In this document: piece after piece, positions 1 through 27,475 of the stretch
How positions within the stretch are numbered: the stretch's first letter is position 1
Layout: the number at the start of each line of letters is the position of its first letter
Virus record (IMG/VR): IMGVR_UViG_3300022910_000004
Direction: 5' to 3' (one strand)
Origin: a virus
Lineage: Duplodnaviria; Heunggongvirae; Uroviricota; Caudoviricetes
Length of the DNA: 64,000 nt
Program-made: the position numbers and the translations under genes
Notes under the pieces: generated by a model
Seen by the model: only the letters and a program-made list of their open reading frames with translations
What the model was told of the DNA's origin: nothing
The model's database searches: none

Positions 1-315
1 ATAGGAAATAAAATTATGATTCGGGGCAATCATGATGAAAAGTTTACAACTGAACAATGGCTAACGGTATTCAAGTCTGTTGAGAGTTTGGTTAAGTATA
101 AAGAGTATTGGCTGTCACATCCACCAATTCACCCTGCTGAATTACGTGGTAGACAAAATATTCATGGACATGTGCATCACGCTTCCATTAGAAACACTTA
201 TACTAATGTGTATGATGATAGGTATATAAATGTGTCTTGTGAAGCAATAAACGAAACACCAATTTCATTAGATGAAATTCGGTATGGTACTTACTGGAAA
301 AATAAGAGGTGTTAA
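1..315 (+). CDS. calcineurin-like metallophosphoesterase, C-terminal part; gene truncated by window start
   Basis: ORF is open to position 1; GNHD and GHVHH phosphoesterase motifs lie near the start of the translated part, so the N-terminal motifs must be upstream of the window. Confidence 0.5.
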   Translation: MGNKIMIRGNHDEKFTTEQWLTVFKSVESLVKYKEYWLSHPPIHPAELRGRQNIHGHVHHASIRNTYTNVYDDRYINVSCEAINETPISLDEIRYGTYWKNKRC

Positions 316-1098: not shown

Positions 1099-1560
1099 AT
1101 GAGACTTATAGTAGCAGGTGGGCGGGAGTTTAATAATTATAAATTCCTCTCCAAGAAACTGGACCGTATTCTCAGTAATACCAAGGGGCCTATAACCATA
1201 ATTAGCGGGGGTGCTCTTGGGGCTGACAAGCTTGGGGAGGATTATGCAGAAGATAACGATCTATCAATAGTTAGAATGCCTGCTGAGTGGGGTAAATATG
1301 GAAAGTCTGCTGGGTATAAACGTAATAAGCAGATGGCTGAAATAGCCACTCATTGTGTATGTTTCTGGGATGGAGAAAGTAAAGGTACTAAACACATGAT
1401 AGATATTGCTAAGGCTAAAGGATTACCCCTTAGGGTTGTTAAGTATAAGAAGCCCAAGAAAAAGGCTTCTGAGTATTTTATGGGGAATCCTCTGGATTAT
1501 GATATGAATGTTTGGGAAAATCAAATTACTGCCTATGACTTAGGCTATGATTGGGGATAA
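1099..1560 (+). CDS. SLOG-superfamily protein (DUF2493/YspA-like)
   Basis: Rossmann-like IISGGALGAD glycine-rich motif and overall size; assignment from memory. Confidence 0.4.
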   Translation: MRLIVAGGREFNNYKFLSKKLDRILSNTKGPITIISGGALGADKLGEDYAEDNDLSIVRMPAEWGKYGKSAGYKRNKQMAEIATHCVCFWDGESKGTKHMIDIAKAKGLPLRVVKYKKPKKKASEYFMGNPLDYDMNVWENQITAYDLGYDWG

Positions 1561-2618: not shown

Positions 2619-3110
2619 ATGAGTAAAGTGGTTTATGCACCAAATCCATCAAGCCATAAAGGGAATGGTATTAATGTATTTCTTGCCGGAAGTATTGATA
2701 TGGGTAAGGCTGAAGACTGGCAACCAGTAGTAGCCAATATCCTAGAACAACTGCAAGAAGTGGGTGAGATATACAACCCTAGAAGATTAGACTTTCAACC
2801 AGATGCAGTACAGTCGATTGATAATGCATATTTCACTCAGCAAGTGCTATGGGAACTAGATCATCTTGAAAAAGCTGATGTAGTATTTATGTACTTAGAT
2901 CCAGCGTCTAAAGCTCCTATATCCCTATTAGAACTTGGATTACTGGCCAGAAGTGATAAGCTGATAGTGTGCTGTCCAAAAGGCTTCTGGCGTAAAGGTA
3001 ATGTGGATGTACTGTGTAACAGAATGGGTATATGCGTACTCGATAAGATGGATACAGCCATAAAAGCTTTGTGCCATATAATTCACTGTAAATATCTTGG
3101 AATCTACTAA
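2619..3110 (+). CDS. nucleoside 2-deoxyribosyltransferase-like protein
   Basis: VFLAGSI near the N-terminus followed by a conserved W, typical of the NDT/Rcl family; GGAGAATAGA RBS before the ATG. Confidence 0.4.
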   Translation: MSKVVYAPNPSSHKGNGINVFLAGSIDMGKAEDWQPVVANILEQLQEVGEIYNPRRLDFQPDAVQSIDNAYFTQQVLWELDHLEKADVVFMYLDPASKAPISLLELGLLARSDKLIVCCPKGFWRKGNVDVLCNRMGICVLDKMDTAIKALCHIIHCKYLGIY

Positions 3111-9641: not shown

Positions 9642-9717
9642 GCGCTGTTAGTTTAATGGATAGAACAGGGGATTTCTAATCCCTCGGCGGCGGGTTCGAC
9701 TCCCCCACGGCGTACCA
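9642..9717 (+). tRNA. tRNA-Arg (anticodon UCU)
   Basis: cloverleaf folded by hand: acceptor GCGCTGT/ACGGCGT (two G-U pairs), D arm GTTT/GAAC, anticodon stem GGGGA/TCCCT with loop TTTCTAA (TCT at 9675-9677), T arm GCGGG-TTCGACT-CCCCC (one mismatch), discriminator A and encoded CCA. Confidence 0.8.
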
Positions 9718-10687: not shown

Positions 10688-11136
10688 AAATTTTAATTGT
10701 CTTTATTTTATTGCTGTTTTCTTCTTGTATGAAAGCTGATGAGCTTTTGTTGGGACAAGAGACATACCATTTTCAAAAGTATATGTGTGCTGGCTGCAAA
10801 CCATACAGAGAAGATAACCCATTAATTGGATATAGCACAGAAAATTATGCGTTTATTGCTATGAAAAATAGCTATGACAATGATAGTATTGTGATTGTAA
10901 GAAAATTTAGCTGGAATTATACAGGCAGAATAAGACCATTTATTGCGGCAGGTTTTGGTACAGGCTATGCGCAATATGCGCCAGCTACTAGTATCGGGAA
11001 TGTGACAGCTCTAGGGTATATGGGTTTTGACTGGCATCCTGATAGAGATAAATGGGGTTATGTTATAACCGTAGTCCCGAGAAAGTTTGTAGGAATAGGC
11101 CTTAGATTTACAATCAATTGGGGGGTTAACCAATGA
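10684..11136 (+). CDS. lipoprotein
   Basis: signal peptide ending in lipobox LFSSC. Confidence 0.5.
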   Translation: MKILIVFILLLFSSCMKADELLLGQETYHFQKYMCAGCKPYREDNPLIGYSTENYAFIAMKNSYDNDSIVIVRKFSWNYTGRIRPFIAAGFGTGYAQYAPATSIGNVTALGYMGFDWHPDRDKWGYVITVVPRKFVGIGLRFTINWGVNQ

Positions 11137-11339
11137 TTGATATGAAAAATACATACTCCTTTATTATTTGGTTATGTGGAGTTATCGGTAAATTTGTCTG
11201 TGATGTTGGCGAATATATTTTGGTGAAAGTTGTTCCTGTAGTTTTTGTGTTGGCAATAAAGTTAATACTATTTATTGTGATGGTTTTCTTTTGTTCGTTA
11301 TTTCTTATTAAACTATTTGATGTCAGTGAAAAACCTTAG
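11133..11339 (+). CDS. small membrane protein
   Basis: two hydrophobic segments; ATGA overlap. Confidence 0.45.
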   Translation: MIDMKNTYSFIIWLCGVIGKFVCDVGEYILVKVVPVVFVLAIKLILFIVMVFFCSLFLIKLFDVSEKP

Positions 11340-13623: not shown

Positions 13624-13932
13624 ATGATTGATATCACAGGTGTTGATTTAAAAGAATTTGTTAAAAAGGTTTATGAACTATCTAAACCACAAGGTTTAGG
13701 ATTCTTGCATTATGAGTCTGGTGGATTGTCTGATGAAGAAGCCCAGTTTATTGTGGATAACTGCTACAATCCCACAAGATTTGCTGTTGCTATGGATTAT
13801 GTGAAAGGTCGTGCATGTAAAATGACTGTTCATAAAAATGGCGACAAACTTGAGATCAAGGATAGTTGGTATGATCACTCTGAGAATCAATTAAAAGAAT
13901 TGCTCTCTCATTTTGGTTTAGAGGTGGCTTAA
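13624..13932 (+). CDS. hypothetical protein
   Basis: GGAGAAG RBS; 102 aa. Confidence 0.5.
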   Translation: MIDITGVDLKEFVKKVYELSKPQGLGFLHYESGGLSDEEAQFIVDNCYNPTRFAVAMDYVKGRACKMTVHKNGDKLEIKDSWYDHSENQLKELLSHFGLEVA

Positions 13933-14819
13933 TGGAATTATTAAGACCACAATTAGCAGCCTCAGATGTGCCAGACATTTATACAGAAGTTAGTTGGCCT
14001 AAGATTATCCAGCCTAAATTGGATGGTATCTGTTGCTTGGCAGTGAATGGGCAGGCGTATAGTCGTACAATGAAACTGATTCCTAATCAATACGTACAGA
14101 AAGTGTTTAAGGAATTAAACCTTCATGGTACACATGGGGAATTGATGGTACATGGTGACTTCAATGATGTACAGTCTGCGATTATGCGTGAAGAGGGAGA
14201 ACCAGACTTCTACTACGTAATTTATGATAAATGGAATAGTGAAGATCATTATGGATTTAGAAAGGCCCACCTAGAACAATTTTATGTGGAAAATATCTGG
14301 GAGAAAGGGGGATATGAAAAACATATTCATTTAATAAAATCCTTCTACGTAACCAATCCAACAGAGTGTGAGGATAAACTTGAGCAATATATCAATTTAG
14401 GTTATGAGGGCGGAATATTACGTTGCCCCTATAGTCTTTATAAACAAGGTAGACACACCCTTAAGTCTCAGGGACTTTTAAAGCTCAAAAAGTTCTATGA
14501 TGATGAAGCAATCATTATTGGCTATGAGGAAAAGATGACCAATGAGAATGAAAAGGTTAAAGATGAGCGTGGCTATTCTAAACGTTCAAGTCATAAAGAG
14601 AATATGGTCCCTGCTGGCGTACTTGGAGCATTAATCGTTAAGTGGAAAGATGTTGAGTTTAAAATTGGTAGTGGGTACAACGATGAGCAGCGTAAAACTC
14701 TTTGGGATACCAGAGATGCGCTAATTGGACTCCCTGTCACATTCAAGTATCAAGAATTGTCTAAATATAAAGTACCAAGATTTCCTGTATTTAAGGGAAT
14801 TCGATTAGAGTATGTATAG
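13932..14819 (+). CDS. lig: ATP-dependent DNA ligase
   Basis: motif I KLDG (QPKLDGICCL), motif III GELMV, motif IV EGGILR, motif V LLKLKK. Confidence 0.85.
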   Translation: MELLRPQLAASDVPDIYTEVSWPKIIQPKLDGICCLAVNGQAYSRTMKLIPNQYVQKVFKELNLHGTHGELMVHGDFNDVQSAIMREEGEPDFYYVIYDKWNSEDHYGFRKAHLEQFYVENIWEKGGYEKHIHLIKSFYVTNPTECEDKLEQYINLGYEGGILRCPYSLYKQGRHTLKSQGLLKLKKFYDDEAIIIGYEEKMTNENEKVKDERGYSKRSSHKENMVPAGVLGALIVKWKDVEFKIGSGYNDEQRKTLWDTRDALIGLPVTFKYQELSKYKVPRFPVFKGIRLEYV

Positions 14820-15304: not shown

Positions 15305-15339
15305 GGCATCTCTAAATTAGTGACGAAGGAGTTATGAAT

Positions 15340-16299
15340 ATGAATCAGATTGTTAATCTCGTGCCAAAGAAGAGTGAACAGTTTGTACCTTGGGAAGGAC
15401 TAGGTACTAAAATAAATGTAAAGGATTCATTGAAGACGACCATGAAAAACGCTGGCTTAGACTGGCAAGCGAAGCGTACCCCTAACTTATACGCTGTATC
15501 CGCAGATACCATCATAAAAGGTAGTAAATCTGTAATATATCGTTCAGATAATAATCTAGAGTTAGGCGTTGTTACTGATAAGTACAAAATTGCACAGCCA
15601 GAGGATATTGTTAAGCTCTATAAAGATTTGATCGATCTTAAAGGTTGGAAATTGGATGTACTTGGCACCCTAGATGGCGGAAAGCGTATCTGGGCTTTGG
15701 CCAAAACAGACTCATCTTTCTTTGCTGGAAATGATGAAGAGGATATTGTTGACATTCATTTGTTACTAACTACCACATTTGATGGGAATAGTAGCACTCA
15801 AGGTAAGTTTATTGGTTTGAGAAATATTTGTGGACAAAGTTTAAGTCTTGCAGTGGGTGAAAACTCTGGACTAACAAAAATACGATTAAATCATAAGGCT
15901 GAATTTAATCCTAAATTTATGACACAAAAATTGAATGTGTTGCCGAAAGCTTCAGAGGTATTTGAAGGACAAGTGGCAACGTTATGTAATAAGCCTATCA
16001 ATGATGCCCAAGCGGCGAGATTTTTGATAGATATGCTGGAAGGTGAAGGTGCAGACCCTGATGATTTATCAGTAAGACAGAGAAATCTTGTACTGAAAGT
16101 GCTCGAATTATATCAGGGCAAGGGTATTGGTAGCAAGTTTAAGTCCTCAAGAGGCACAGCTTGGGGTTTACTCAACGCACTGACACAACATGTAGATTAT
16201 GATGTTGGACTTAACACCAATAACATTATTCGCTCAGCTTGGTTTGGTTTAGGGGAAACCCTCAAAATCAAGGCAATGACCAAACTACTTAAAATTTAA
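15340..16299 (+). CDS. DUF932-family phage/plasmid protein
   Basis: N-terminal ...VPWEGLGT...AGLDWQAK pattern characteristic of DUF932 (from memory); start placed at the second ATG for RBS spacing. Confidence 0.45.
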   Translation: MNQIVNLVPKKSEQFVPWEGLGTKINVKDSLKTTMKNAGLDWQAKRTPNLYAVSADTIIKGSKSVIYRSDNNLELGVVTDKYKIAQPEDIVKLYKDLIDLKGWKLDVLGTLDGGKRIWALAKTDSSFFAGNDEEDIVDIHLLLTTTFDGNSSTQGKFIGLRNICGQSLSLAVGENSGLTKIRLNHKAEFNPKFMTQKLNVLPKASEVFEGQVATLCNKPINDAQAARFLIDMLEGEGADPDDLSVRQRNLVLKVLELYQGKGIGSKFKSSRGTAWGLLNALTQHVDYDVGLNTNNIIRSAWFGLGETLKIKAMTKLLKI

Positions 16300-16984: not shown

Positions 16985-17296
16985 ATGAATGCTTATAAAA
17001 TGTCAATCTCAGAACGTAGAGCACTTCTGGATTCCAGTCTAAAACGTGGGCGTATTGCCAGTATTGCATGGAAAAAAGCTTCTGGTGAGGCTACTAAACG
17101 TAATTTTACGGAAAAGTGTCTTGATGGATTTAGAGATGGTATAGAAAATGCAAAACCTAATCCAGTCAAAGACAAGCCTGAACTCTATACCGCTTGGGAT
17201 TTATCTAAAAGAGATTGGTCAAATGTAAATCTGAACAACTTGATAAGTGTAGCTCTTGATGGGGAGACATGGGAATTTGGGGCAGAAGATGTCTGA
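16985..17296 (+). CDS. hypothetical protein
   Basis: 103-aa ORF. Confidence 0.45.
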   Translation: MNAYKMSISERRALLDSSLKRGRIASIAWKKASGEATKRNFTEKCLDGFRDGIENAKPNPVKDKPELYTAWDLSKRDWSNVNLNNLISVALDGETWEFGAEDV

Positions 17297-17618
17297 GAAT
17301 CCTTATATTGAAACAGTAATAACTAACACTATTCGTAAGTACAATCCTAATTACGGTGATAATAGGGTTTGTGAATGTGGTCATACTTATGACAGGCATT
17401 TTGATTCATATGAAAATATGAGCCCAGTCGGTTGTAAGTATTGCCCCTGTGGCACTTTCGTAGAGGCGAATCTCATACTTAGGCATACACCTTTTGATAT
17501 TTATCAAGTACCTAATGAGTGCGTATTTGTTCTTGATATTGTGAATTGGATTAATAAGCAAGAGGACAAAGAAGTCTACACTAAACTTTTGGTTGCTTTG
17601 GGTGAGGAGATTTACTAA
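17289..17618 (+). CDS. Cys-rich (zinc-binding?) protein
   Basis: CECGHTYDRH...CKYCPCG. Confidence 0.45.
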   Translation: MSENPYIETVITNTIRKYNPNYGDNRVCECGHTYDRHFDSYENMSPVGCKYCPCGTFVEANLILRHTPFDIYQVPNECVFVLDIVNWINKQEDKEVYTKLLVALGEEIY

Positions 17619-18076
17619 TGCCAGTAGAAATAATTAAGGGTGACCTTCTTGATGCCTTCGATAGAGGTGAAGTTGATATAATTGGCCATGTAGTAAATTG
17701 TCAAAGTGTGATGGGATCAGGAATTGCTTTAGCTATTAAGAATCGTTACCCAAATGTTTATAAAAGTTATTTAGATTCATTCCCAGAAGCATTGAAAGAG
17801 GGTGTGACAAAAGACTTAATGCTTGGTCACGTTGAAGTTATTGATGGTGTTGCAAATATGTATGCCCAATTTAAATACGGGGCAGACAAGCGGCATTTAA
17901 ATTATGGAGCTATATCTCAATGTCTTTCGAGTCTGGCTATGTATGGAGATAAGAGTTACATCTTTGGCTTTCCTTATAAAATGGGTTGTGATCGAGCTGG
18001 TGGGGATTGGTCTGTTGTTTTAGAAATGATAGAATATTACTTTAACGATGTTAGAGTTAAAATCTATGAACTATAA
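17618..18076 (+). CDS. macro-domain protein, TARG1/OARD1/DarG-like (ADP-ribose binding or hydrolase)
   Basis: IIGHVVNCQSVMGSGIALAIK matches the HxxNxxxxMGAGIA macro-domain signature. Confidence 0.65.
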   Translation: MPVEIIKGDLLDAFDRGEVDIIGHVVNCQSVMGSGIALAIKNRYPNVYKSYLDSFPEALKEGVTKDLMLGHVEVIDGVANMYAQFKYGADKRHLNYGAISQCLSSLAMYGDKSYIFGFPYKMGCDRAGGDWSVVLEMIEYYFNDVRVKIYEL

Positions 18077-18737
18077 ACTCTATCAAATGTCTCCATCCAT
18101 CTTCGTTGTTGAAATGGATAATGCCGAAGATCTTGCACATACATTTTTAAGAGTGCAGGAATTTTATGAAAGTGAGAATGATGATTTCAGAGAAGGCGTT
18201 TTTACCATTGAAGAGTACAAGAAGTGGTATTGTACTCAAAGTTATGATGGGACATTTAGCTATGCCAAAGATTGGGTCGGATTTAATATCCATTCAAGTG
18301 TAATTGAACGGTGTTATGCTTGTTCCAGAGAATTCACTAAAGATGATATTTTCTTTTTAAGCATTTGTGCCAGCATAAAGAACCAAATAGGGGATAATGG
18401 ATACTATTTGTGTGGTATTAAAACATGTGATAAAGAAACTTTAGACCATGAGTTGGCTCATGCGCTGTTTAGTACTAATTTAGAATATCGACAAGTAATG
18501 ATTGATGCAGTGTTAGCAATAGATCGTTTGAATTTAGATGTTATTTTCACTACCTTACAAGATGAGGGATATTCGTTTTCTGTTGTTATAGATGAAACAC
18601 AGGCACATTTAAGTACTGGTCTGGTGAATATCCCAGAAACAGAGTATTTGTTAGGGTTAAGAAAACAATTTAGCAGTATCTTCAATAAGTTTATAAAAGA
18701 ACTTGGAGATCCTATATTAATAATGAGAGGAGCATAA
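18066..18737 (+). CDS. HExxH zincin-like protein (SprT/DUF45-like metallopeptidase?)
   Basis: DHELAHALF motif; several Cys; start ambiguous (18048, 18066 or 18087). Confidence 0.4.
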   Translation: MNYKLYQMSPSIFVVEMDNAEDLAHTFLRVQEFYESENDDFREGVFTIEEYKKWYCTQSYDGTFSYAKDWVGFNIHSSVIERCYACSREFTKDDIFFLSICASIKNQIGDNGYYLCGIKTCDKETLDHELAHALFSTNLEYRQVMIDAVLAIDRLNLDVIFTTLQDEGYSFSVVIDETQAHLSTGLVNIPETEYLLGLRKQFSSIFNKFIKELGDPILIMRGA

Positions 18738-18741
18738 TTTA

Positions 18742-18999
18742 ATGAATAAGGCACTAATTTTAATGATGATTACTCTTTGTCTTGTAGGCTGTGGAGACAA
18801 GTCTTATACAGATGATAGTGAAAATTATAAATTACCACCAGAACTCTCTGCATGTAAAGTTTACTATCTAGGTCAAGGCGGACTGCAAACAGGAATAACA
18901 GTAGTGCATTGCCCAAGAGCAGATACTACAACGTCTTATACACAGTCTTGTGGAAAAGGTTGCACAAGACATATTAATACTACAGTGGCGAGCTATTAA
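18742..18999 (+). CDS. lipoprotein
   Basis: lipobox LVGC. Confidence 0.5.
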   Translation: MNKALILMMITLCLVGCGDKSYTDDSENYKLPPELSACKVYYLGQGGLQTGITVVHCPRADTTTSYTQSCGKGCTRHINTTVASY

Positions 19000-19000
19000 T

Positions 19001-19948
19001 ATGAATTTAATTATGAAATGCCTATTCGGTAGCCACCTTTATGGTTTGAACACACCCACTTCAGATAAAGACTATAAAGGAATCTATTTGCCAGACAAAG
19101 ACAATTTGTTGCTTGGAAATTATGCCAAGCATTATTCTGAATCTACAGGTAATGATAAGACTAAGAATACTAAAGATGATATTGACGTGGAGATATTTTC
19201 TCTTCCCTATTTTATAGAACTTGCCTGTAAAGGCGAGACTGTAGCTTTGGATATGCTTCATGCAAGAGAGGAAATGTTTGAGTCTAATATTGGTGAAATA
19301 TGGTGGGAGCTAAAAAATAGACGTAAGATGTTCTACACCAAAGATATGAAGTCCTATATTGGCTATGCTCGTAAGCAGGCTAATAAGTACGGTATCAAAG
19401 GTAGTCGTATGGGGTCTGTTGAAGGAGCTATGAAAGCTTTAGCTAAACTAACACCCAATTGGAAATTGAGTCAGGTTTGGGACAACTTGCCCACAGATGA
19501 GTTTTTAATAAAAGTTACTATGAATGATAAATCCTCTGCAAAACCTTTAAATTTTTATGAGGTATGTGGCCGAAAGTACCAAGACACTTTATTTGTTTAC
19601 CAAGCTTATGAGCTTATAGAGGGGATCTATAAAGAGTATGGGGATAGGGCTAGACAAGCTAAGAATGATGAGGGCGTGGATTGGAAAGCTGTTAGTCATG
19701 CACTAAGGGCTTCTTACCAAATGCTTGGTATTTTGAATGATGGAGATTTTGAATATCCTCTCCCCCAAACAGAATTTTTGTTGGCGGTAAAAACAGGGCA
19801 GCTTAACTTTGTAAATGAAGTTCAGCCAGAATTAGATTCTCTTATCGTTAAGATCGAAAAGATGTCAGCGGAAAGTAGTTTACCAAATAAAGTTGACAGG
19901 AATTATTGGGATCAATGGTTATTAAATGTTTATAGAGAATATCTTTAG
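19001..19948 (+). CDS. Pol-beta-fold nucleotidyltransferase (unknown substrate)
   Basis: GSHLYGLNTPTSDKDYKG (GS...[DE]x[DE]) plus downstream DIDVE; start placed at the ATG following the stop of the lipoprotein gene. Confidence 0.5.
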   Translation: MNLIMKCLFGSHLYGLNTPTSDKDYKGIYLPDKDNLLLGNYAKHYSESTGNDKTKNTKDDIDVEIFSLPYFIELACKGETVALDMLHAREEMFESNIGEIWWELKNRRKMFYTKDMKSYIGYARKQANKYGIKGSRMGSVEGAMKALAKLTPNWKLSQVWDNLPTDEFLIKVTMNDKSSAKPLNFYEVCGRKYQDTLFVYQAYELIEGIYKEYGDRARQAKNDEGVDWKAVSHALRASYQMLGILNDGDFEYPLPQTEFLLAVKTGQLNFVNEVQPELDSLIVKIEKMSAESSLPNKVDRNYWDQWLLNVYREYL

Positions 19949-19957
19949 GAGAAAACA

Positions 19958-20830
19958 ATGACAATACAATTATTCATAGATGGGGTAGAAGTTCCTGTAA
20001 AAAAGATTAAATTTTCTGATGGGGGATCTAATGTAAAATTAGAAGTTCCTGAAGGATTATCTCCAAGAAGATACATATGCATTACAGTTGACCCAATTAC
20101 ACCCGCAGATAACTATTTGTGGGAAATCGGTTTGGTTATGTATGCTTTGGAGGTATTGTTTCCAGATTACGAAACAAAGACTATTATAAATTTACCATAT
20201 CTACCTCACGGCAGAGCAGATAGAGTGTTTGAAAGAGGTAATCCATGCCCTCTAGAATGTTTCTTTGATGAATTCCTTTGTTGGGAATTAGATAATATTG
20301 AGATTCATTTAACTGATCCGCATAGTGACTTTTATAAAAATTATGCAGATAATCTCGCTTTTGAAGTGAAAGAGCAGTACCAATGTTTTAGAGATACAGT
20401 TTTTGGATTCCAGTCTGGAGATTATTTAATAAGTCCTGATAAGGGGGCCAAGACTAAGATTCATCAACTTCAACAGTACTTAGATTCTCGCTGGGTGGCT
20501 TCATTTGTTGTTGAGGCGGAAAAAGTGAGAGATCCATCCAACGGTAAAATATTAGAAACTACTTTACCTGAAGGTATTGATCTTACTAATAAGGTATGTT
20601 ATATTGTCGATGACATTTGTGATGGAGGTGGAACATTCATCCCTCTCGCTGAGAAGCTTAAAGAAGCTGGAGCAAAAGAAGTTCATTTGTACGTCACTCA
20701 TGGCATATTCGCTAAAGGTTTGGATTTGTTTAAAGGTAAAATAGATAAGCTTCATGTATACCAAATAGTAAGTAATTATGTTACAATGATTGATATTATG
20801 AACTTTAATCAGGGGAAAGAGGTAAAATGA
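19958..20830 (+). CDS. ribose-phosphate pyrophosphokinase homolog (Prs-like; candidate ADPR-PP synthetase of NARP1 type)
   Basis: PRPP-binding loop YIVDDICDGGGT; divergent N-terminus lacking canonical Prs motifs. Confidence 0.65.
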   Translation: MTIQLFIDGVEVPVKKIKFSDGGSNVKLEVPEGLSPRRYICITVDPITPADNYLWEIGLVMYALEVLFPDYETKTIINLPYLPHGRADRVFERGNPCPLECFFDEFLCWELDNIEIHLTDPHSDFYKNYADNLAFEVKEQYQCFRDTVFGFQSGDYLISPDKGAKTKIHQLQQYLDSRWVASFVVEAEKVRDPSNGKILETTLPEGIDLTNKVCYIVDDICDGGGTFIPLAEKLKEAGAKEVHLYVTHGIFAKGLDLFKGKIDKLHVYQIVSNYVTMIDIMNFNQGKEVK

Positions 20831-21105
20831 TTATGTTTAGCGATCACTGCCAAAAATGTGGACACAGCCTAGAGTGTATGGCCGGTGAATCTGCACACCC
20901 CTCTAATTGGTATTGTCCAAACAAGAATTGTGAGAAAGACGCTCAAGAACTTAAGATAAAATATCTTAAAAGTAAACGAGATCACCTAATTGATGAAGCA
21001 CAGAAGGCAGCACATGCCTACTTCGTTGAGTGTGATATTGGGAAGGAGCGTGAAAAGGCTGGCGAGATATATGAAAATATCCGTACTGCTGGAAGAGTTT
21101 ATTAA
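20827..21105 (+). CDS. zinc-ribbon protein
   Basis: CQKCGH...CPNKNC. Confidence 0.45.
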   Translation: MIMFSDHCQKCGHSLECMAGESAHPSNWYCPNKNCEKDAQELKIKYLKSKRDHLIDEAQKAAHAYFVECDIGKEREKAGEIYENIRTAGRVY

Positions 21106-21136
21106 CAATTAAGTAAATTTATATTAGGAGATAATT

Positions 21137-22858
21137 ATGCCATTAGCACAAACAGATAGTTATAAGCTTTCACACAAAGGGTTTATGAATAAAGGTACAA
21201 CTAAGCTTTATTCAAATATGACCGCCCGTTCTGGCAAACATTTCCCCGTCCTGCAAGATCGTTGGGATGGTAAAGTAGTAGTATTTGGATTTCAAAAGTT
21301 TGTCATTGAATTCCTGATTAATGAGTGGAACAGTAAGTTCTTTCAAATGCCTAAACATAAGGCTATTAAGAAATTCAAACGCCTTGTAGATGCTTACCTT
21401 GGTAAAGATGCTGTTGATATGGCACACTTCGAAGCTTTGCATGATATTGGTTATTTACCTTTGCACATCAAGTCTATTGATGAAGGTAATCGTGTAAATA
21501 TTAAAGTTCCTTTGTGGACTATTACAAATACTCATCCAGATTTTGCATGGTTAGTGAACTATCTCGAAACTGTGATGTCTTGTGAGTGCTGGAAACCAAT
21601 TACCACAGCTACGATTATCTCTGAATATCGTAAACTGATTAATGAATATGCACTAAAGACCACTGGCAGCTTAATGGGCACACAGTTCCAGATTCATGGT
21701 TTTGAATTCCGTGGAATGGCAAATCGTCAAGATGCAGCAAGCTGTGCAGCCGGAATGTGCTTATCTACAAATGGTACAGATACAATTCCAGCTTTAGAAT
21801 TAATTGAAGAGTACTACTTCACTGATATTGAGAAGTACTTTGTGGCAACTTCTGTGCCAGCAAGCGAACACTCTATTGCGTGTCTTGGAACTGCTGTACA
21901 AGGTGAATTAGAATCCTATCGTAAATGGATTACTGTAGACTATCCTACTGGCATTGTAAGCTTGGTAAGCGATACCTACGATTATTGGAAAGTACTAACA
22001 GAGTATCTCCCAATTCTTAAGCCCGATATTCTTGCTCGTCCAGTTAATGAGATTGGTTTGAGTAAAGTAGTTATTCGTCCTGATTCTGGTAACCCTGCGG
22101 ATATTATTTGTGGAGATGTTTTCACAGATTTAACTAAAGACTGTAAAGATTTTGACACTTTCAAACGTTGGGCGTTAGAAATCATTCGGGAAGAAGTGGG
22201 AGATGATACTCCTCATGGAGAGTGTGGTGAATGTAACCCAAACAAAATCTTCAAATGGCAAGATAAGTACTATGATGTACATGCAGAAATTGAATGGAAT
22301 CGTTATGATAAACAATACTATTATATGGAGGACGAACGCATCACTAGTGTGGAAGAAATTGAACTTACACCAGAACAAAAAGGCTCTGTAGAACTCCTCT
22401 GGGAGACCTTTGGAGGCACTGTAACAGAGCAGGGATACAAAGTATTAGACAGTCACATAGGATTGATCTATGGTGATTCTATTACACTTAAAGTGGCTTT
22501 AGATGTAATGGAACGATTAGCAGCCAAAGGATTTGCCTCAACAAACATAGTGTTTGGTGTAGGCAGTTATACAATGCAGTATCTAACTCGTGATAGCTTA
22601 GGTATGGCAGTTAAAGCCACCTATGGCGAAGTTGATGGTGTTGGTTATGAGTTGTTTAAAGATCCAATTACTGATAGCGGTATGAAGAAGTCAGCAAAAG
22701 GATTGTTACGTGTGGAAAAAGAGGGAGATGATTACGTTCTATATGATCAGCAAACTCTAGAGCAAGAGGCTACAGGGGAATTAACTTCTCTGTTTTTGAA
22801 TGGGAAATTGATGAAACAAACTACATTCGAAGAATGTCGTAATCGTCTTTGGAAATAA
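21137..22858 (+). CDS. nadV: nicotinamide phosphoribosyltransferase family protein (NadV/Nampt-like; candidate Namat)
   Basis: 573 aa; type-II PRTase RPDSGNPADI motif; adjacent to Prs-like gene. Confidence 0.75.
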   Translation: MPLAQTDSYKLSHKGFMNKGTTKLYSNMTARSGKHFPVLQDRWDGKVVVFGFQKFVIEFLINEWNSKFFQMPKHKAIKKFKRLVDAYLGKDAVDMAHFEALHDIGYLPLHIKSIDEGNRVNIKVPLWTITNTHPDFAWLVNYLETVMSCECWKPITTATIISEYRKLINEYALKTTGSLMGTQFQIHGFEFRGMANRQDAASCAAGMCLSTNGTDTIPALELIEEYYFTDIEKYFVATSVPASEHSIACLGTAVQGELESYRKWITVDYPTGIVSLVSDTYDYWKVLTEYLPILKPDILARPVNEIGLSKVVIRPDSGNPADIICGDVFTDLTKDCKDFDTFKRWALEIIREEVGDDTPHGECGECNPNKIFKWQDKYYDVHAEIEWNRYDKQYYYMEDERITSVEEIELTPEQKGSVELLWETFGGTVTEQGYKVLDSHIGLIYGDSITLKVALDVMERLAAKGFASTNIVFGVGSYTMQYLTRDSLGMAVKATYGEVDGVGYELFKDPITDSGMKKSAKGLLRVEKEGDDYVLYDQQTLEQEATGELTSLFLNGKLMKQTTFEECRNRLWK

Positions 22859-22879
22859 TTAAATATCGGGAGTAGTAAA

Positions 22880-23101
22880 ATGGGACTTAATGTTTTTGGT
22901 AAATTGCTAACTGTGGATGATGCTATCTCTTCTTTACAAAAGACAGTAGATAAGCTGAAAGATGTTATTGGCGTTCGTGATAATGCTATAACAGAAAACA
23001 CAGCTAAAGTGGCCGACCTTCAGAGGGAAGTTGCAGAACATCAATCTGAAAAGGAAAGAGCCCAAGCAATTTTAGAAAAATTAACTAATTTGTTAAGTTG
23101 A
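22880..23101 (+). CDS. coiled-coil protein
   Basis: 73-aa heptad-rich ORF. Confidence 0.4.
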   Translation: MGLNVFGKLLTVDDAISSLQKTVDKLKDVIGVRDNAITENTAKVADLQREVAEHQSEKERAQAILEKLTNLLS

Positions 23102-23111
23102 GGAGATAATT

Positions 23112-23327
23112 GTGGTGGACCCTGTTGAAATAAAAGCCTCTAGGGATAGGGTTGCCAGAAGACTAGAGCGACTTAACTCTTTAAAAGATAAGATAGAAAA
23201 TAGACACTCTGGAAGAGAAATTTGGTTTACCTACCATGCTGGTTGGGATCTTGGATATCTTAAAGGGCAAATCTCTATTTTAGAGGAAATGGAAGATTTG
23301 CTCAATGATCTTGTTAGAGATAGTTAA
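23112..23327 (+). CDS. hypothetical protein (GTG start)
   Basis: GAGGAG RBS then GTG. Confidence 0.4.
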   Translation: MVDPVEIKASRDRVARRLERLNSLKDKIENRHSGREIWFTYHAGWDLGYLKGQISILEEMEDLLNDLVRDS

Positions 23328-23343
23328 TAAAGAATTTAAGTTA

Positions 23344-23373
23344 TAGACAAAGCTTAAGTAAAGGTGTTATAAT
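23344..23373 (+). promoter_or_regulatory. extended -10 promoter candidate (TAGACA-18-TGtTATAAT)
   Basis: TGnTATAAT at 23365-23373. Confidence 0.4.
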
Positions 23374-23404
23374 AAATTTTATTTTAAACTAAGGAGAATA
23401 GATT

Positions 23405-24289
23405 ATGAATGAACAATCCGTATCAAAACTTGCTAAATGGGGAATTATTTCTATTATAGCAATTATTGTGCTCGCTGTGTTAAGTCCATTTAACACTGTC
23501 CCCACTGGTACTCGTGGTGTAGTAACTCAGTTTGGTGCTATTAAAGGTATTGAACAAGAGGGTTTAGTAATCCTACCTCCTTGGCAAAAACTCTCTGTAT
23601 TCAATACACGAGCAGAAGAAGCCACTATCGAGAAGGCTGTAGGGGCTACAAGTGATACACAACCAGTATTTGTTAGTCTTACTGTACGCTATAATGTCTT
23701 CCCAGACCGTGTAGCAGAAGTATATGAGAAATACTCTCGTGATGGAGACTTGTCTTCATATGTACAGACAGCAACTGCTGAAGTATTTAAGGCAGTAACA
23801 GCCAAATACACTGCACCAGACCTTATTAGTCAACGTGCAAAAGTATCAACTGATATTGTAGAAGCTTTGTCTAAGAAACTGTCTTTATATGGTGCAAACG
23901 TAATAAACGTTGATATGCGTAACTTTGAGTTTTCTGCCACTTATATGACAGCAATTAATCAAAAGGTTACTCAAGAGCAATTACGATTAGTAGCAGAGAA
24001 TCAACTGAAGACGGTGGAAGCAGAGCAAAAGCAGAAAGTTGCTATTGCTGAAGCAGAAGCTAATGCCGCTCGTGCAAAGGCTGATGGTGAATCTTACGCT
24101 AACTTAAAGATTGCATCAGCTCAAGCTGAAGCACTACGAATTCAGAATGCTGCATTAGCTCAAAATAAAGATGTGTTAGAGCTTCGTCGTATTGAAGTAG
24201 AAATGAAAAAAGCTGAAAATTGGAATGGTGCCCTACCACAAAATATTTATGCTGGTGCCCCAATTCCCTTTATGAACTTTCCTAAATAA
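23405..24289 (+). CDS. SPFH/band-7 (prohibitin/HflKC-like) membrane protein
   Basis: N-terminal TM then TGTRGVVTQFGAI...LPPW core; Ala/Glu-rich coiled coil at C-terminus. Confidence 0.65.
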   Translation: MNEQSVSKLAKWGIISIIAIIVLAVLSPFNTVPTGTRGVVTQFGAIKGIEQEGLVILPPWQKLSVFNTRAEEATIEKAVGATSDTQPVFVSLTVRYNVFPDRVAEVYEKYSRDGDLSSYVQTATAEVFKAVTAKYTAPDLISQRAKVSTDIVEALSKKLSLYGANVINVDMRNFEFSATYMTAINQKVTQEQLRLVAENQLKTVEAEQKQKVAIAEAEANAARAKADGESYANLKIASAQAEALRIQNAALAQNKDVLELRRIEVEMKKAENWNGALPQNIYAGAPIPFMNFPK

Positions 24290-24334: not shown

Positions 24335-24362
24335 GATGCTTCGTAAGAGGCATCATTTTTAA
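24335..24362 (+). terminator. putative terminator
   Basis: GATGCTTC...GAGGCATC imperfect hairpin then ATTTTTA. Confidence 0.35.
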
Positions 24363-24408: not shown

Positions 24409-25119
24409 ATGGCAAATAGTCTTGGCGATAGAATGAAGGGTTATGAACATGTTAATCGTAACTTCTTGATTAAAAGAATGCCTGTGGTTATCCGTTTGGA
24501 TGGAAAAGCTTTCCACACTTACACTAAAAACTGTGGAAAGCCTTATGACTCAGATTTGCATATTGTTCGTAAGGCGACTCTGGAACATCTTTGCAAAGAA
24601 ATACAAGGTGTTATTATAGGGTATTCTCAGTCAGATGAGATATCCCTTGTTCTTAAAGACTGGCAGACATTCAACACTTCTGCTTGGTTTAACAATAACA
24701 TCCAGAAAATTTGCAGTGTATCGGCCTCAATGTGTACGATGAGGTGGAATAGTGCAGTTAATTTCATGAACTATGATATTGGGCATATTGTTTTAGAGCC
24801 TTGTGCTATGTTTGACTCAAGAGTGTTCAATCTTCCCAAAGAGGAAGTAGTGAATTATTTAATCTGGAGGCAACAAGATTGGGAACGTAACTCTGTCCAA
24901 ATGTTGGCCCAAAGCTTATACTCTCACAAAGAGTTACAAGGTAAAAGCTGCTCCCAATTGATTACTAAAATCGAAGAGGAATTTAATATTATCTGGGGAA
25001 ATTTTTTGCCTTGGAAAAAGCAAGGTGAAATTTGGTTTGGTGGGAAAACACAAGAGAGTTTTCTTTTTAAGAATAATCGTGTCCTTATTGAGGAAGAACT
25101 TAATTTGGAGTTGAATTGA
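24409..25119 (+). CDS. tRNA-His guanylyltransferase Thg1-like protein (3'-5' nucleotide addition)
   Basis: RLDGKAFH and GYSQSDEISLVL match the Thg1 catalytic core. Confidence 0.7.
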   Translation: MANSLGDRMKGYEHVNRNFLIKRMPVVIRLDGKAFHTYTKNCGKPYDSDLHIVRKATLEHLCKEIQGVIIGYSQSDEISLVLKDWQTFNTSAWFNNNIQKICSVSASMCTMRWNSAVNFMNYDIGHIVLEPCAMFDSRVFNLPKEEVVNYLIWRQQDWERNSVQMLAQSLYSHKELQGKSCSQLITKIEEEFNIIWGNFLPWKKQGEIWFGGKTQESFLFKNNRVLIEEELNLELN

Positions 25120-26290: not shown

Positions 26291-27475
26291 ATGACACCTT
26301 TTGAGCAACAAGGTTGGACTAAAGATAGTCTATTTACCGTAGATAACAGTTCATACTTCAGACAAGGTGAGATTATTTGGCTACATAAAGATGATAAATC
26401 AAGTAGTCCATATTTTACAAATGGTGAGATGACATTTTCCAAATGTCTATCTGGGCTAAAGTACTTAGGAGAAAAAGGTAAAATGAGTAGAGATAAAATT
26501 ACGGATAAATCTTCTTATAAGCCAAACTCTATGCCAGACATTACTAAGTTTAAGCATACTGCGGTAGTAAAGTTCTATACTGATGGAAGATTATATGGAA
26601 AAGAATATCATTATCTATGTGATGACTCTATCTTAAGGAAGTATATAGATAGCGATGGCCCTTTTGACCATACTGCTATTGTTAGTGGCGAGTCTAAGAA
26701 AATTTCAGTTAGATCGGTATTACCAAATTATCTTTCTGAAAAGGCGACTAAGGCTCTTCCAGAGGTAGCCTTTACATCACCAATCTTGACAGATTCAGTA
26801 AAAATTAAGGTTACAGTATCTAACCCTAATGAGTTAAAAGTAGGTAGTAGAGTTAAGATAAGAAAGGGTACAAGATATTATGGAAATTCTACCAGAAATC
26901 CGGCAGAGGTTGAAGGTACTGTTAACGAAATTAAATCTTCCGGTTGGTTTCATGTTATATGGGATAATGAGGAATCAGAAGATTATGAATATCCAGATTT
27001 AGAATTGGTTGAAAATAAAGTAGAAAAAGATTTGAAAATATCTTCATCTAATGCTAAAGTGGAATCTAGTGCTTCACAATCTGTAAAGCTGGTTTGGGAT
27101 AAAGAGTACTTAATGAGAGTTGGTGGTTATTGGAAAATGCCTGATAATATGGGTGTTTCTGAAACAGATGTTAAACTTAAACAAGAGGATGTTAATATGG
27201 GTGTACGTAGAACAGTAACAATTGAATTGATTGACGATGATAAGGGCTTGGATGTATCTGATGCTCTTGTTGCATCTTACGAAAATGTCTTGATTGAGAC
27301 AGATACTGAAAGTGCAATTCGTGAGATTTTGATGACCAAGAATGTTGCCAAGAAATTGGAAGAACACAATGTTAAACGCATGGCTACAGTAGATTTAGAT
27401 ATTCTTAATCGTACAGGTAATGAAGTTAAGCTCCGTTCAGTACAGCTTAATCAACTTCGTTGGAATGTAAAATAA
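26291..27475 (+). CDS. hypothetical protein (394 aa)
   Basis: GGAGA RBS; no recognisable motif. Confidence 0.5.
   Translation: MTPFEQQGWTKDSLFTVDNSSYFRQGEIIWLHKDDKSSSPYFTNGEMTFSKCLSGLKYLGEKGKMSRDKITDKSSYKPNSMPDITKFKHTAVVKFYTDGRLYGKEYHYLCDDSILRKYIDSDGPFDHTAIVSGESKKISVRSVLPNYLSEKATKALPEVAFTSPILTDSVKIKVTVSNPNELKVGSRVKIRKGTRYYGNSTRNPAEVEGTVNEIKSSGWFHVIWDNEESEDYEYPDLELVENKVEKDLKISSSNAKVESSASQSVKLVWDKEYLMRVGGYWKMPDNMGVSETDVKLKQEDVNMGVRRTVTIELIDDDKGLDVSDALVASYENVLIETDTESAIREILMTKNVAKKLEEHNVKRMATVDLDILNRTGNEVKLRSVQLNQLRWNVK

What the first reader, a model, noticed from the sequence alone, without database searches (positions are those of the whole stretch)
19001..19948. Pol-beta-fold nucleotidyltransferase of unknown substrate directly upstream of the NAD module
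GS-x10-SDKD followed by DIDVE is the minimal NTase catalytic triad. The rest (about 250 aa) is alpha-helical and unrecognisable to me. It could be an NMN/NaMN adenylyltransferase analogue completing NAD synthesis, a CD-NTase-like signal synthase or decoy, or a tRNA 3'-end repair enzyme that would complement the Thg1-like protein at 24409.
Basis: inference. Interest (0 to 1): 0.55.

Follow-up and report, generated by a model that had tools for sequence, protein, structure and literature searches.

The report
Phage RlaP-type RNA-end nucleotidyltransferase (T4 NrdC.11 homologue)
The gene is real and encodes an active-looking nucleotidyltransferase. [quoted passage not shown]

Summary
The ORF at 19001-19948 (+, 315 aa) is real. 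Its Pol-beta motifs are G10-S11-x9-S21-D22-x-D24 and D60-I-D62-V-E64. D22, D24 and D62 are invariant in 78 homologues.

It matches Pfam PF10127 (RlaP, 46 bits against a cut-off of 23) and PHROG 388 over its full length (E 2e-97). It is 42-44% identical to T4 NrdC.11. Only residues 2-130 align to canonical RlaP; the C-terminal ~185 aa are specific to this subfamily.

Adjacency to the NAD genes is not conserved. In relatives at 65-76% identity the gene sits directly upstream of primase-helicase and DNA polymerase. The NAD genes fit NARP1 (Adps + Namat), which needs no adenylyltransferase.

Across 164 related loci the recurrent neighbours are RNA-repair genes:
- RtcB in 24 loci
- Rnl1 in 11 loci
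- Pnkp in 8 loci
- HD-kinase in 8 loci
- a canonical RlaP paralogue directly downstream in 29 of 80 bacterial loci

The window's own contig also encodes an RNA ligase and a T4-type Pnkp about 22-24 kb upstream, and a Thg1-like enzyme 4.5 kb downstream.

Best reading: a template-independent RNA 3'-end nucleotidyltransferase in a phage tRNA-repair toolkit. That activity is inferred, not shown, for this subfamily. It is a new member of a known kind, of low to moderate interest. One unexpected feature is a recombining variable cassette at residues 138-216.

The parts
19001..19948 (+). Gene for a 315-aa RlaP-family (T4 NrdC.11-like) Pol-beta nucleotidyltransferase
   Evidence: ORF. Pfam PF10127 E 5e-12. 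PHROG 388 E 2e-97 over the full length. 42-44% identity to T4-like nrdC.11 in 1518 phage records. AlphaFold2 model with pLDDT 92.
19028..19072 (+). NTase signature G10-S11-x9-S21-D22-K23-D24, carrying the first two catalytic aspartates
   Evidence: Translation. G10, S11, S21, D22 and D24 are invariant in 78 homologues. The motif aligns with GS...SDYD of canonical RlaP.
19178..19192 (+). D60-I-D62-V-E64 on a beta strand; D62 is the probable third catalytic aspartate
   Evidence: Translation. D60 and D62 are invariant, E64 is not. D62 aligns with the invariant D88 of canonical RlaP paralogues.
19412..19648 (+). Variable central cassette (residues 138-216) covering helices 134-162, the sheet at 169-194 and the start of helix 199-221
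   Evidence: Nucleotide identity to the sibling phage L005 is 52-73% across about 19400-19700, against 89-100% in almost every other 100-nt bin of 17000-23500. Besides that dip, only the RlaP-Adps junction and a patch at 22100-22400 in Namat fall lower. In the protein, the core is 98% identical and the cassette 47%. The more distant P0003 shows core 79% and cassette 75%. This is the highest-entropy part of the family alignment.
24409..25119 (+). Thg1-like 3'-5' nucleotidyltransferase, a second RNA-end repair enzyme in the same gene array (functional link inferred)
   Evidence: PF04446 E 8e-29. PHROG 4717 E 6e-86. Thg1 and RlaP are both listed as phage RNA-end restoration enzymes in PMC7824862.
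17618..18076 (+). Macro-domain protein (T4 Tk.4-like, DarG-like). It is a conserved upstream neighbour of the NTase in related phages; its role is unresolved.
   Evidence: PHROG 335 E 2e-41. DarG macro-domain models E 1e-11 and 5e-13. It lies 0.6-1.4 kb upstream of RlaP in L002, L003 and L008.

Best explanation
[quoted passage not shown] The most likely mechanism has three steps. Host ribonucleases deployed against the phage cut tRNA or other RNA and may trim a nucleotide. The enzyme then uses NTP and a divalent metal held by D22, D24 and D62 to add one or two nucleotides, without a template, to the 3'-OH of the broken RNA. The phage's own polynucleotide kinase/phosphatase and RNA ligase, encoded on the same contig upstream of the window, prepare the ends and seal the break. 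The Thg1-like enzyme would do the equivalent job at 5' ends. What is shown: family membership, intact catalytic residues, a confident fold, and genomic association with RNA-repair genes. What is inferred: RNA as the substrate, 1-2 nt addition, and the order of steps. These come from Pseudomonas RlaP enzymes of another subfamily. Its position next to the NAD+ reconstitution genes reflects co-location of accessory counter-defence genes in one long same-strand array, not a shared pathway.
For: Family and homology:
- PF10127 is the only Pfam family hit (46.4 bits against a cut-off of 23).
- PHROG 388 matches over the full length.
- Precomputed PF10127 annotation is present on nearly all of the 120 listed homologues.

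Active site and fold:
- The three aspartates are invariant and align with those of canonical RlaP. PMC12776372 reports three strictly conserved catalytic aspartates.
- The model has pLDDT 92 with an N-terminal NTase domain and a helical C-terminal domain, the architecture described for PfRlaP.
- BFVD fold matches to phage 'nucleotidyltransferases' reach TM 0.72-0.77 over the full length.

Neighbours in 164 related loci:
- RtcB in 24 loci (PF01139, E 4e-120 for the L074 copy).
- Rnl1 in 11 loci (PF09511).
- Pnkp in 8 loci (PF25109).
- HD-kinase in 8 loci.
- A small HD protein directly downstream in 19 loci.
- A canonical RlaP paralogue directly downstream in 29 of 80 bacterial loci.
- Example gene orders are HD-kinase-Rnl1-RlaP, and RlaP-ligase-RtcB, preceded in five of the eight such loci by a conserved 133-145-aa ORF with no Pfam match.

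The same phage genome:
- A 429-aa RNA ligase. It is 95% identical to the L166 copy, which hits PHROG 968 at E 1.5e-46.
- A T4-type Pnkp. It is 99% identical to the L166 copy, which hits PHROG 505 at E 4e-91. Both genes lie on the window's own contig.
- A Thg1-like gene inside the window.

Biochemistry of the family: RlaP adds 1-2 NMP to RNA 3'-OH and does not act on DNA or protein (PMC12776372).
Against: - No enzyme of the NrdC.11-like subfamily has been assayed.
- Only residues 2-130 align to canonical RlaP (hhalign probability 63%, E 7e-5), so substrate recognition by the divergent C-terminal 185 aa could differ.
- In this phage the RNA ligase and Pnkp genes lie 22-24 kb away, not in an operon with the NTase.
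- No RtcB is present in the window.
- T4 nrdC.11 is dispensable in the laboratory and has no known phenotype (PMC9825161).
Confidence: 0.6

Rival explanations
1. It is an RNA 3'-end tailing or acceptor-end repair enzyme. Under this reading it rebuilds or extends the 3' termini of tRNAs (CCA-like repair) or marks RNAs, rather than restoring nucleotides at internal breaks before ligation.
For: RlaP also labels intact tRNA- and rRNA-sized species and shows little NTP specificity (PMC12776372). The phage carries a Thg1-like enzyme for the opposite end of tRNA and one tRNA gene. In this phage the NTase is not next to a ligase.
Confidence: 0.15
2. It makes a nucleotide-based signal or decoy. For example, it could carry out protein-primed or free oligonucleotide synthesis like Hailong HalB and keep a host DNA-gated effector silent during infection.
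Confidence: 0.07
3. It takes part in NAD+ metabolism together with the adjacent genes, for instance as an NMN/NaMN adenylyltransferase analogue or by acting on ADP-ribose derivatives.
For: It lies 9 nt upstream of the Adps gene, with no predicted terminator between them. NAD-salvage genes lie within 5-10 kb of RlaP homologues in several other phage lineages: L011, L015, L055, L084, and T4-like phages carrying NMNAT-Nudix.
Against: NARP1 needs only Adps and Namat (bioRxiv 10.1101/2024.02.11.579819; PMC13586617). The adjacency survives only in the near-identical sibling L005. Relatives at 65-76% identity place the gene directly before primase-helicase, with Namat ~6 kb upstream in L002 and L003 and no Namat homologue detected in the others. 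Of the 82 related viral loci other than the window's own contig and its near-identical sibling L005, only 2 have an Adps homologue and 7 a Namat/Nampt homologue within 10 kb. Known NMNATs have a Rossmann-like fold (PF01467, as in the phage NMNAT-Nudix proteins), not a Pol-beta fold. Most T4-like phages that carry NrdC.11 have no NARP genes nearby.
Confidence: 0.04

Closest known systems
Bacteriophage T4 NrdC.11 and its homologues in T4-like phages (PHROG 388, annotated 'nucleotidyltransferase')
   Same: Homologous over the full length (residues 1-313 of 315) at 42-44% identity. The catalytic motifs, length (~315-335 aa) and PHROG are the same. Both are accessory early-region genes.
   Different: The window phage is not T4-like. 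Its DNA polymerase is family A and 51-55% identical to those of Vibrio and Shewanella myoviruses. The genomic neighbours differ: the T4 gene lies between the mobD and nrdC.10 genes. The function of T4 NrdC.11 is itself untested, and the gene is deletable (PMC9825161).
Canonical RlaP (PF10127 cluster 1a: Pseudomonas fluorescens and P. aeruginosa RlaP in rtcB-rlaP-rtcA operons; PMC12776372)
   Same: Both have a Pol-beta NTase core with three conserved aspartates and an N-terminal NTase domain plus a helical C-terminal domain. Both are associated with RtcB and 5'-phosphate RNA ligases in many loci.
   Different: Only residues 2-130 are alignable at the profile level. This protein is ~50-60 aa longer and has a variable cassette with a beta sheet. 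Bacteria often carry both types in tandem (29 of 80 loci), which suggests non-redundant roles. The activity is untested for this subfamily.
Hailong HalB (PDB 9dbh), a defence NTase that makes tyrosine-primed oligodeoxyadenylate
   Different: Identity is only 16% and no sequence-level relationship is detectable. HalB is 217 aa and is paired with a membrane effector, whereas this gene family is paired with RNA ligases.
Class II CCA-adding enzymes and Thg1-like proteins (other RNA-end restoration enzymes found in phages)
   Same: These are proposed to play the same kind of role, restoring RNA termini after host nuclease attack (PMC7824862). A Thg1-like gene sits 4.5 kb downstream.
   Different: They are different families. 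No CCA-adding-enzyme domains are detected, and Thg1 has an unrelated fold and works in the 3'-5' direction.

Membership tests
[quoted passage not shown] | Score above the Pfam gathering threshold | tested here: met
   46.4 bits against a cut-off of 23, E 5e-12. The match covers only protein residues 2-133 and HMM positions 19-142 of 249. Precomputed PF10127 annotation is present on nearly all listed homologues.
Pfam PF10127 RlaP | Pol-beta signature hG[GS]-x9-13-D-x-D plus a third strictly conserved aspartate | tested here: met
   G10, S11, D22, D24 and D62 are invariant in 78 homologues. They align with GS/DxD/D88 of canonical RlaP. Three conserved aspartates are reported for PfRlaP (PMC12776372).
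Pfam PF10127 RlaP | Full-length homology, including the C-terminal helical domain of canonical RlaP | tested here: inconclusive
   hhalign aligns only the first ~130 residues (probability 63%). Foldseek against BFVD aligns full-length phage NTases of ~240-285 aa at TM 0.45-0.59, which suggests a similar overall architecture. The PfRlaP structure is not in the PDB copy searched.
Pfam PF10127 RlaP | Genomic association with RNA ligases and RNA-repair genes | tested here: met
   For the subfamily: RtcB, Rnl1, Pnkp or HD-kinase lies within 5 kb in 40 of 164 loci. For this phage: an RNA ligase and Pnkp are on the same contig but 22-24 kb away.
Pfam PF10127 RlaP | Enzymatic addition of 1-2 NMP to RNA 3'-OH, with no action on DNA | not testable with these tools
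   This needs a biochemical assay. It has been shown only for PfRlaP and PaRlaP (PMC12776372).
T4 NrdC.11-like subfamily (PHROG 388; SSN cluster 5 of PMC12776372) | Full-length similarity to T4-type NrdC.11 proteins | tested here: met
   PHROG 388 E 2e-97, protein residues 1-314 against profile positions 36-333 of 351. tblastn gives 99-100% coverage at 42-44% identity to T4, T2, T6 and ime09 nrdC.11.
CD-NTase (cGAS/DncV-like signalling nucleotidyltransferases) | Match to CD-NTase models or the cGAS-like fold | tested here: not met
NMN/NaMN adenylyltransferase (NadD/NadR/NMNAT; PF01467 CTP_transf_like) | Rossmann-like HxGH nucleotidyltransferase fold or family match | tested here: not met
   No PF01467 hit. 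The fold is Pol-beta. True phage NMNAT-Nudix proteins found in other loci do hit PF01467 and NUDIX.
Hailong HalB-type NTase | Sequence or profile relationship to HalB and pairing with a HalA-like membrane effector | tested here: not met

The most novel reading that the evidence does not exclude
The NrdC.11-like RlaP may be more than a generic RNA-end filler. Its central cassette (residues 138-216) could be a swappable specificity module that phages exchange by recombination, either to retarget the enzyme to different damaged host or phage RNAs or to escape a host sensor. Supporting observations are that the cassette is 47% identical between phages whose remaining sequence is 98% identical, and that bacteria pair this long form in tandem with a canonical RlaP. 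A more radical version is that the enzyme synthesises a HalB-like oligonucleotide that neutralises a nucleotide-gated defence.
Probability: 0.12. Interest if true: 0.65.

Novelty: new member of a known kind. Interest (0 to 1): 0.3.

Why it matters
This result changes the reading of the region. The nucleotidyltransferase is not an unrecognised step of phage NAD+ synthesis. It is one component of a scattered RNA-repair toolkit: RNA ligase, Pnkp, RlaP and a Thg1-like enzyme. That toolkit lies in the same gene array as a NARP1 NAD+-reconstitution module. An uncultured ~97-kb phage therefore appears to stack two independent counter-defence strategies.

The NrdC.11-like subfamily is very common. It occurs in 1518 deposited phage genomes, including T4, and in many bacteria, yet it has never been assayed. 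The variable cassette and the bacterial tandem with canonical RlaP give concrete handles for finding out what distinguishes it from the Pseudomonas enzymes.

Tried and rejected
- Megablast of 17000-23000 against deposited phages found nothing, so no close cultured relative exists.
- phmmer and profile searches of the PDB with the protein, with its family alignment and with canonical RlaP paralogues gave no meaningful hit. The published PfRlaP structure is apparently not in the copy searched.
- The afdb50 fold library was unavailable.
- PADLOC and NCBIfam have no model for the protein.
- tblastn for RtcB in the window was negative.
- The promoter scan equals the chance expectation and shows no site that isolates the gene as its own unit.
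- Tan et al. 2025 (Hailong) and Burroughs & Aravind 2016 (the original RlaP definition) are not held in the library. What is said about them comes from secondary sources (PMC13434031, PMC7824862, PMC12776372).
- One contig look-up failed because window ORF 16-315 is only the C-terminal part of a metallophosphoesterase gene that starts upstream of the window.
- The longer GTG start at 18950 was considered and rejected.
- A dedicated NAD role was considered and rejected on pathway logic and on the non-conserved synteny.

Full report
**1. The observation**

The + strand carries an ORF from ATG 19001 to TAG 19948 (315 aa). An alternative GTG start at 18950 would overlap the upstream lipoprotein-like gene (18742-18999). 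I reject it for two reasons: the metagenome's own gene call is the 315-aa product (P0001), and homologues align from residue 1-4.

The motif is G10-S11-HLYGLNTPT-S21-D22-K23-D24 (19028-19072), followed by D60-I-D62-V-E64 (19178-19192). In an alignment of 78 homologues at 46-85% identity, G10, S11, S21, D22, D24, D60 and D62 are invariant, and E64 is not.

The stop codon lies 9 nt before the start of the next gene, and an AGGAG overlaps the stop.

**2. What the protein is**

- Pfam reports one family, PF10127 RlaP ('RNA repair pathway DNA polymerase beta family'), at 46.4 bits against a gathering score of 23. The match covers residues 2-133 only.
- PHROG 388 ('nucleotidyltransferase') matches over the full length at E 2e-97.
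- tblastn against 50,697 deposited phage genomes finds 1518 records, nearly all T4-like, at 40-44% identity and 99-100% coverage. In annotated records the gene is nrdC.11.
- That preprint characterised two Pseudomonas enzymes of cluster 1a. They add one or two NMPs to RNA 3'-OH ends, prefer Mn2+, do not act on DNA or protein, show little NTP specificity, and prefer the broken end of a cleaved-tRNA mimic.

**3. Structure**

An AlphaFold2 model built from the 78-sequence alignment is confident (pLDDT 92, pTM 0.80). It has:

- an N-terminal alpha/beta NTase core (residues 1-90);
- helices at 98-162;
- a three-stranded sheet at 169-194;
- long helices at 199-314.

This matches the overall plan described for PfRlaP, an NTase domain plus a helical domain.

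Fold searches gave the following:

| Search | Result |
|---|---|
| Foldseek vs PDB | Weak, best E 3e-3 |
| Foldseek vs viral models (BFVD) | Full-length phage 'nucleotidyltransferases' at TM 0.72-0.77; shorter (~240-285 aa) phage NTases at TM 0.45-0.59 |

A profile-profile comparison with 22 canonical RlaP paralogues aligns only residues 2-130 (probability 63%, E 7e-5). One of those paralogues scores PF10127 at E 7e-67. The comparison puts D62 opposite their invariant D88.

I conclude that this is an RlaP-family enzyme of a distinct, longer subfamily. Its C-terminal ~185 residues are not recognisably similar in sequence to those of the characterised enzymes.

**4. Is it linked to the NAD genes?**

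The two downstream genes are:

- a Prs-like protein (PF00156 and PF14572; TIGR01251 at 76 bits, below the cut-off of 113);
- a Nampt-like protein (PF04095 and PF18127).

A Prs-like gene next to a Nampt-like gene in a phage is the operational definition of NARP1 (Adps + Namat) (bioRxiv 10.1101/2024.02.11.579819). In NARP1, Adps makes ADPR-PP from ADP-ribose and ATP, and Namat joins it to nicotinamide to give NAD+ (PMC13586617). No adenylyltransferase step is missing.

Synteny argues the same way.

- In relatives whose NTase is 65-76% identical (L002, L003, L004, L006, L007, L008), the gene sits immediately upstream of the primase-helicase and DNA polymerase genes. In L002 and L003 the Nampt-like gene lies about 6 kb upstream; no Namat homologue was detected in the others.
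- Only the near-identical sibling phage (L005) keeps the NTase-Adps-Namat order, and even there 262 nt are inserted at the junction.
- Among 84 viral loci, 4 have an Adps homologue and 9 a Namat/Nampt homologue within 10 kb. Both counts include the window's own contig (L001) and L005.

NAD-salvage genes do recur within 5-10 kb in several lineages: L011, L015, L055, L084, and T4-like phages with NMNAT-Nudix. Their order and orientation vary. I read this as clustering of accessory counter-defence genes rather than a shared pathway.

**5. What it is linked to**

I collected 164 loci encoding relatives, 84 viral and 80 from bacterial or archaeal genomes. I clustered all neighbouring ORFs within 5 kb and annotated the recurrent clusters with Pfam.

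| Neighbour | Loci | Note |
|---|---|---|
| Canonical RlaP paralogue | 29 of 80 genomic | directly downstream |
| RtcB | 24 (11 viral, 13 genomic) | |
| Small HD-domain protein | 19 | directly downstream |
| T4 Rnl1-type RNA ligase | 11 | |
| ATP-dependent ligase | 10 | |
| Pnkp | 8 | |
| HD-kinase fusion | 8 | |

At least one of RtcB, Rnl1, Pnkp or HD-kinase lies within 5 kb in 40 of 164 loci. Typical gene orders are HD-kinase-Rnl1-RlaP (L030, L032), RlaP-HD-...-RtcB (L018, L058), and RlaP-ligase-x-RtcB (eight loci, L020 to L074), preceded in five of them by a conserved 133-145-aa ORF that has no Pfam match. This is the association that gave the family its name, and here it is demonstrated for the NrdC.11-like subfamily.

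**6. RNA-repair genes in this phage**

The window contains no RtcB. Its ligase at 13932-14819 is an ATP-dependent DNA ligase (PF14743 and PF01068, PHROG 114).

I fetched the part of the window's own contig that lies upstream of the window (ENA ERZ27228472 k141_1664580, 96,681 bp; L168). In window coordinates it encodes:

- a 429-aa protein at about -5264 to -3975. It is 95% identical to the sibling's copy, which matches PHROG 968 'RNA ligase' at E 1.5e-46 over the full length.
- a 296-aa T4-type polynucleotide kinase/phosphatase at about -3459 to -2569 (AAA_33 + HAD_PNKP; PHROG 505 E 4e-91 for the 99%-identical sibling copy).

Together with the Thg1-like gene at 24409-25119, the phage carries a dispersed heal-fill-seal toolkit, as T4 does. 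A comparative study of jumbo phages describes the same repertoire: RlaP mirroring RNA ligases, with sporadic Thg1 and Macro domains processing by-products (PMC7824862).

**7. Mechanism proposed**

Shown:
- family membership;
- an intact acidic triad;
- a confident fold;
- association with RNA-repair genes, both in related loci and in this genome.

Inferred:
- the enzyme adds 1-2 nucleotides, without a template, to the 3'-OH of RNA broken by host ribotoxins, restoring residues that RloC-like nucleases remove;
- it acts after Pnkp has healed the end and before the RNA ligase seals it.

I give this about 0.6. Rivals are 3'-terminal (acceptor-end) repair or tailing (0.15), HalB-like oligonucleotide synthesis as a decoy (0.07), a role in NAD metabolism (0.04), and other substrates for the remainder.

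**8. An unexpected detail**

Across 17000-23500 the window and its sibling phage L005 are 89-100% identical at the nucleotide level in almost every 100-nt bin. Identity falls to 52-73% within the NTase gene at about 19400-19700. Two other places also fall out of that range: the RlaP-Adps junction, where L005 carries the 262-nt insertion, and a patch in Namat at 22100-22400.

In the protein, residues 1-137 and 217-315 are 98% identical, whereas residues 138-216 are 47% identical with an indel. A more distant homologue, P0003, shows the opposite pattern: core 79%, cassette 75%. The cassette has therefore been exchanged by recombination.

It is also the most variable part of the whole family (entropy 2-3 bits). 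It covers the helices at 134-162 and the sheet at 169-194. It may determine substrate or partner specificity, but this is untested.

**9. Verdict**

The gene is a new member of a known kind, the RlaP family in its NrdC.11-like subfamily. Interest is low to moderate. The family is named and was recently characterised, but this widespread subfamily has not been assayed, and the variable cassette and the bacterial tandem paralogues are not, to my knowledge, described.

Noticed in passing
window 19412-19648 (residues 138-216 of the NTase); L005 and P0002, P0003: A central cassette of the NTase is 47% identical to the sibling phage's copy, although the rest of the protein is 98% identical. The cassette is closer (75%) to that of a more distant homologue. 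This points to recombinational cassette exchange in the most variable part of the family.
   Followed up: partly
window 19958-20830 and 21137-22858: A Prs-like gene and a Nampt-like gene form a NARP1-type NAD+ reconstitution module (Adps + Namat). The Namat is 573 aa against 532 aa in the sibling phage. It has a highly divergent patch at about 22100-22400, with 36-41% nucleotide identity where the flanks are ~99% identical.
   Followed up: partly
window 17618-18076: A macro-domain protein (PHROG 335 'phosphatase', the PHROG annotated 'phosphatase' for T4-like tk.4; weak DarG-type macro hits) lies three genes upstream of Adps. It could be an ADPR-1''-phosphate phosphatase extending NARP1 (Adpp; bioRxiv 10.64898/2026.01.28.702374) or a de-ADP-ribosylating enzyme. 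It stays 0.6-1.4 kb upstream of the NTase in relatives that lack the adjacent NARP1.
   Followed up: partly
L168 3639-4928 and 5444-6334 (same contig, upstream of window position 1); window 16-315: The phage contig encodes a 429-aa RNA ligase (PHROG 968) and a T4-type Pnkp just outside the window. Window ORF 16-315 is the C-terminal part of a metallophosphoesterase gene that starts upstream of the window.
   Followed up: yes
L088, L090, L093, L124, L132, L136, L162, L164 and 21 further genomic loci: In bacterial genomes the NrdC.11-like NTase is followed immediately by a canonical ~255-275-aa RlaP paralogue (29 of 80 loci). The tandem suggests a two-subunit or two-step system.
   Followed up: partly
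L018, L058, L061 and 16 further loci: A ~174-aa HD-domain protein (PF01966) sits directly downstream of the NTase in 19 loci, often with RtcB a few genes further on. It may be an end-healing phosphoesterase partner.
   Followed up: no
window 24409-25119: The Thg1-like gene is only 80% identical in protein to the sibling phage's copy, whereas most surrounding genes are 92-100% identical; the neighbouring ORF at 26291-27475 is likewise only 80% identical. This is another mosaic patch in an RNA-repair gene.
   Followed up: no
window 23344-23373, 23405-24289, 24335-24354: An SPFH/Band_7 membrane protein gene is flanked by the best sigma-70-like promoter match in the region (11 of 12, with an extended -10 TG) and by a terminator-like hairpin. 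It may be a separately expressed insertion.
   Followed up: no
L005 about 10969-11235 (between the NTase stop and the Adps start): The sibling phage carries a 262-nt insertion exactly at the NTase-Adps junction, which marks the junction as a recombination breakpoint.
   Followed up: no
window 9642-9717: A single tRNA-Arg(TCT) gene is the only tRNA in the window.
   Followed up: no
window 1099-1560, 2619-3110, 15334-16299: Other accessory genes lie in the same + strand array: a YAcAr-domain protein (PF10686), a nucleoside 2-deoxyribosyltransferase-like protein (PF15891) and a DUF932 protein.
   Followed up: no
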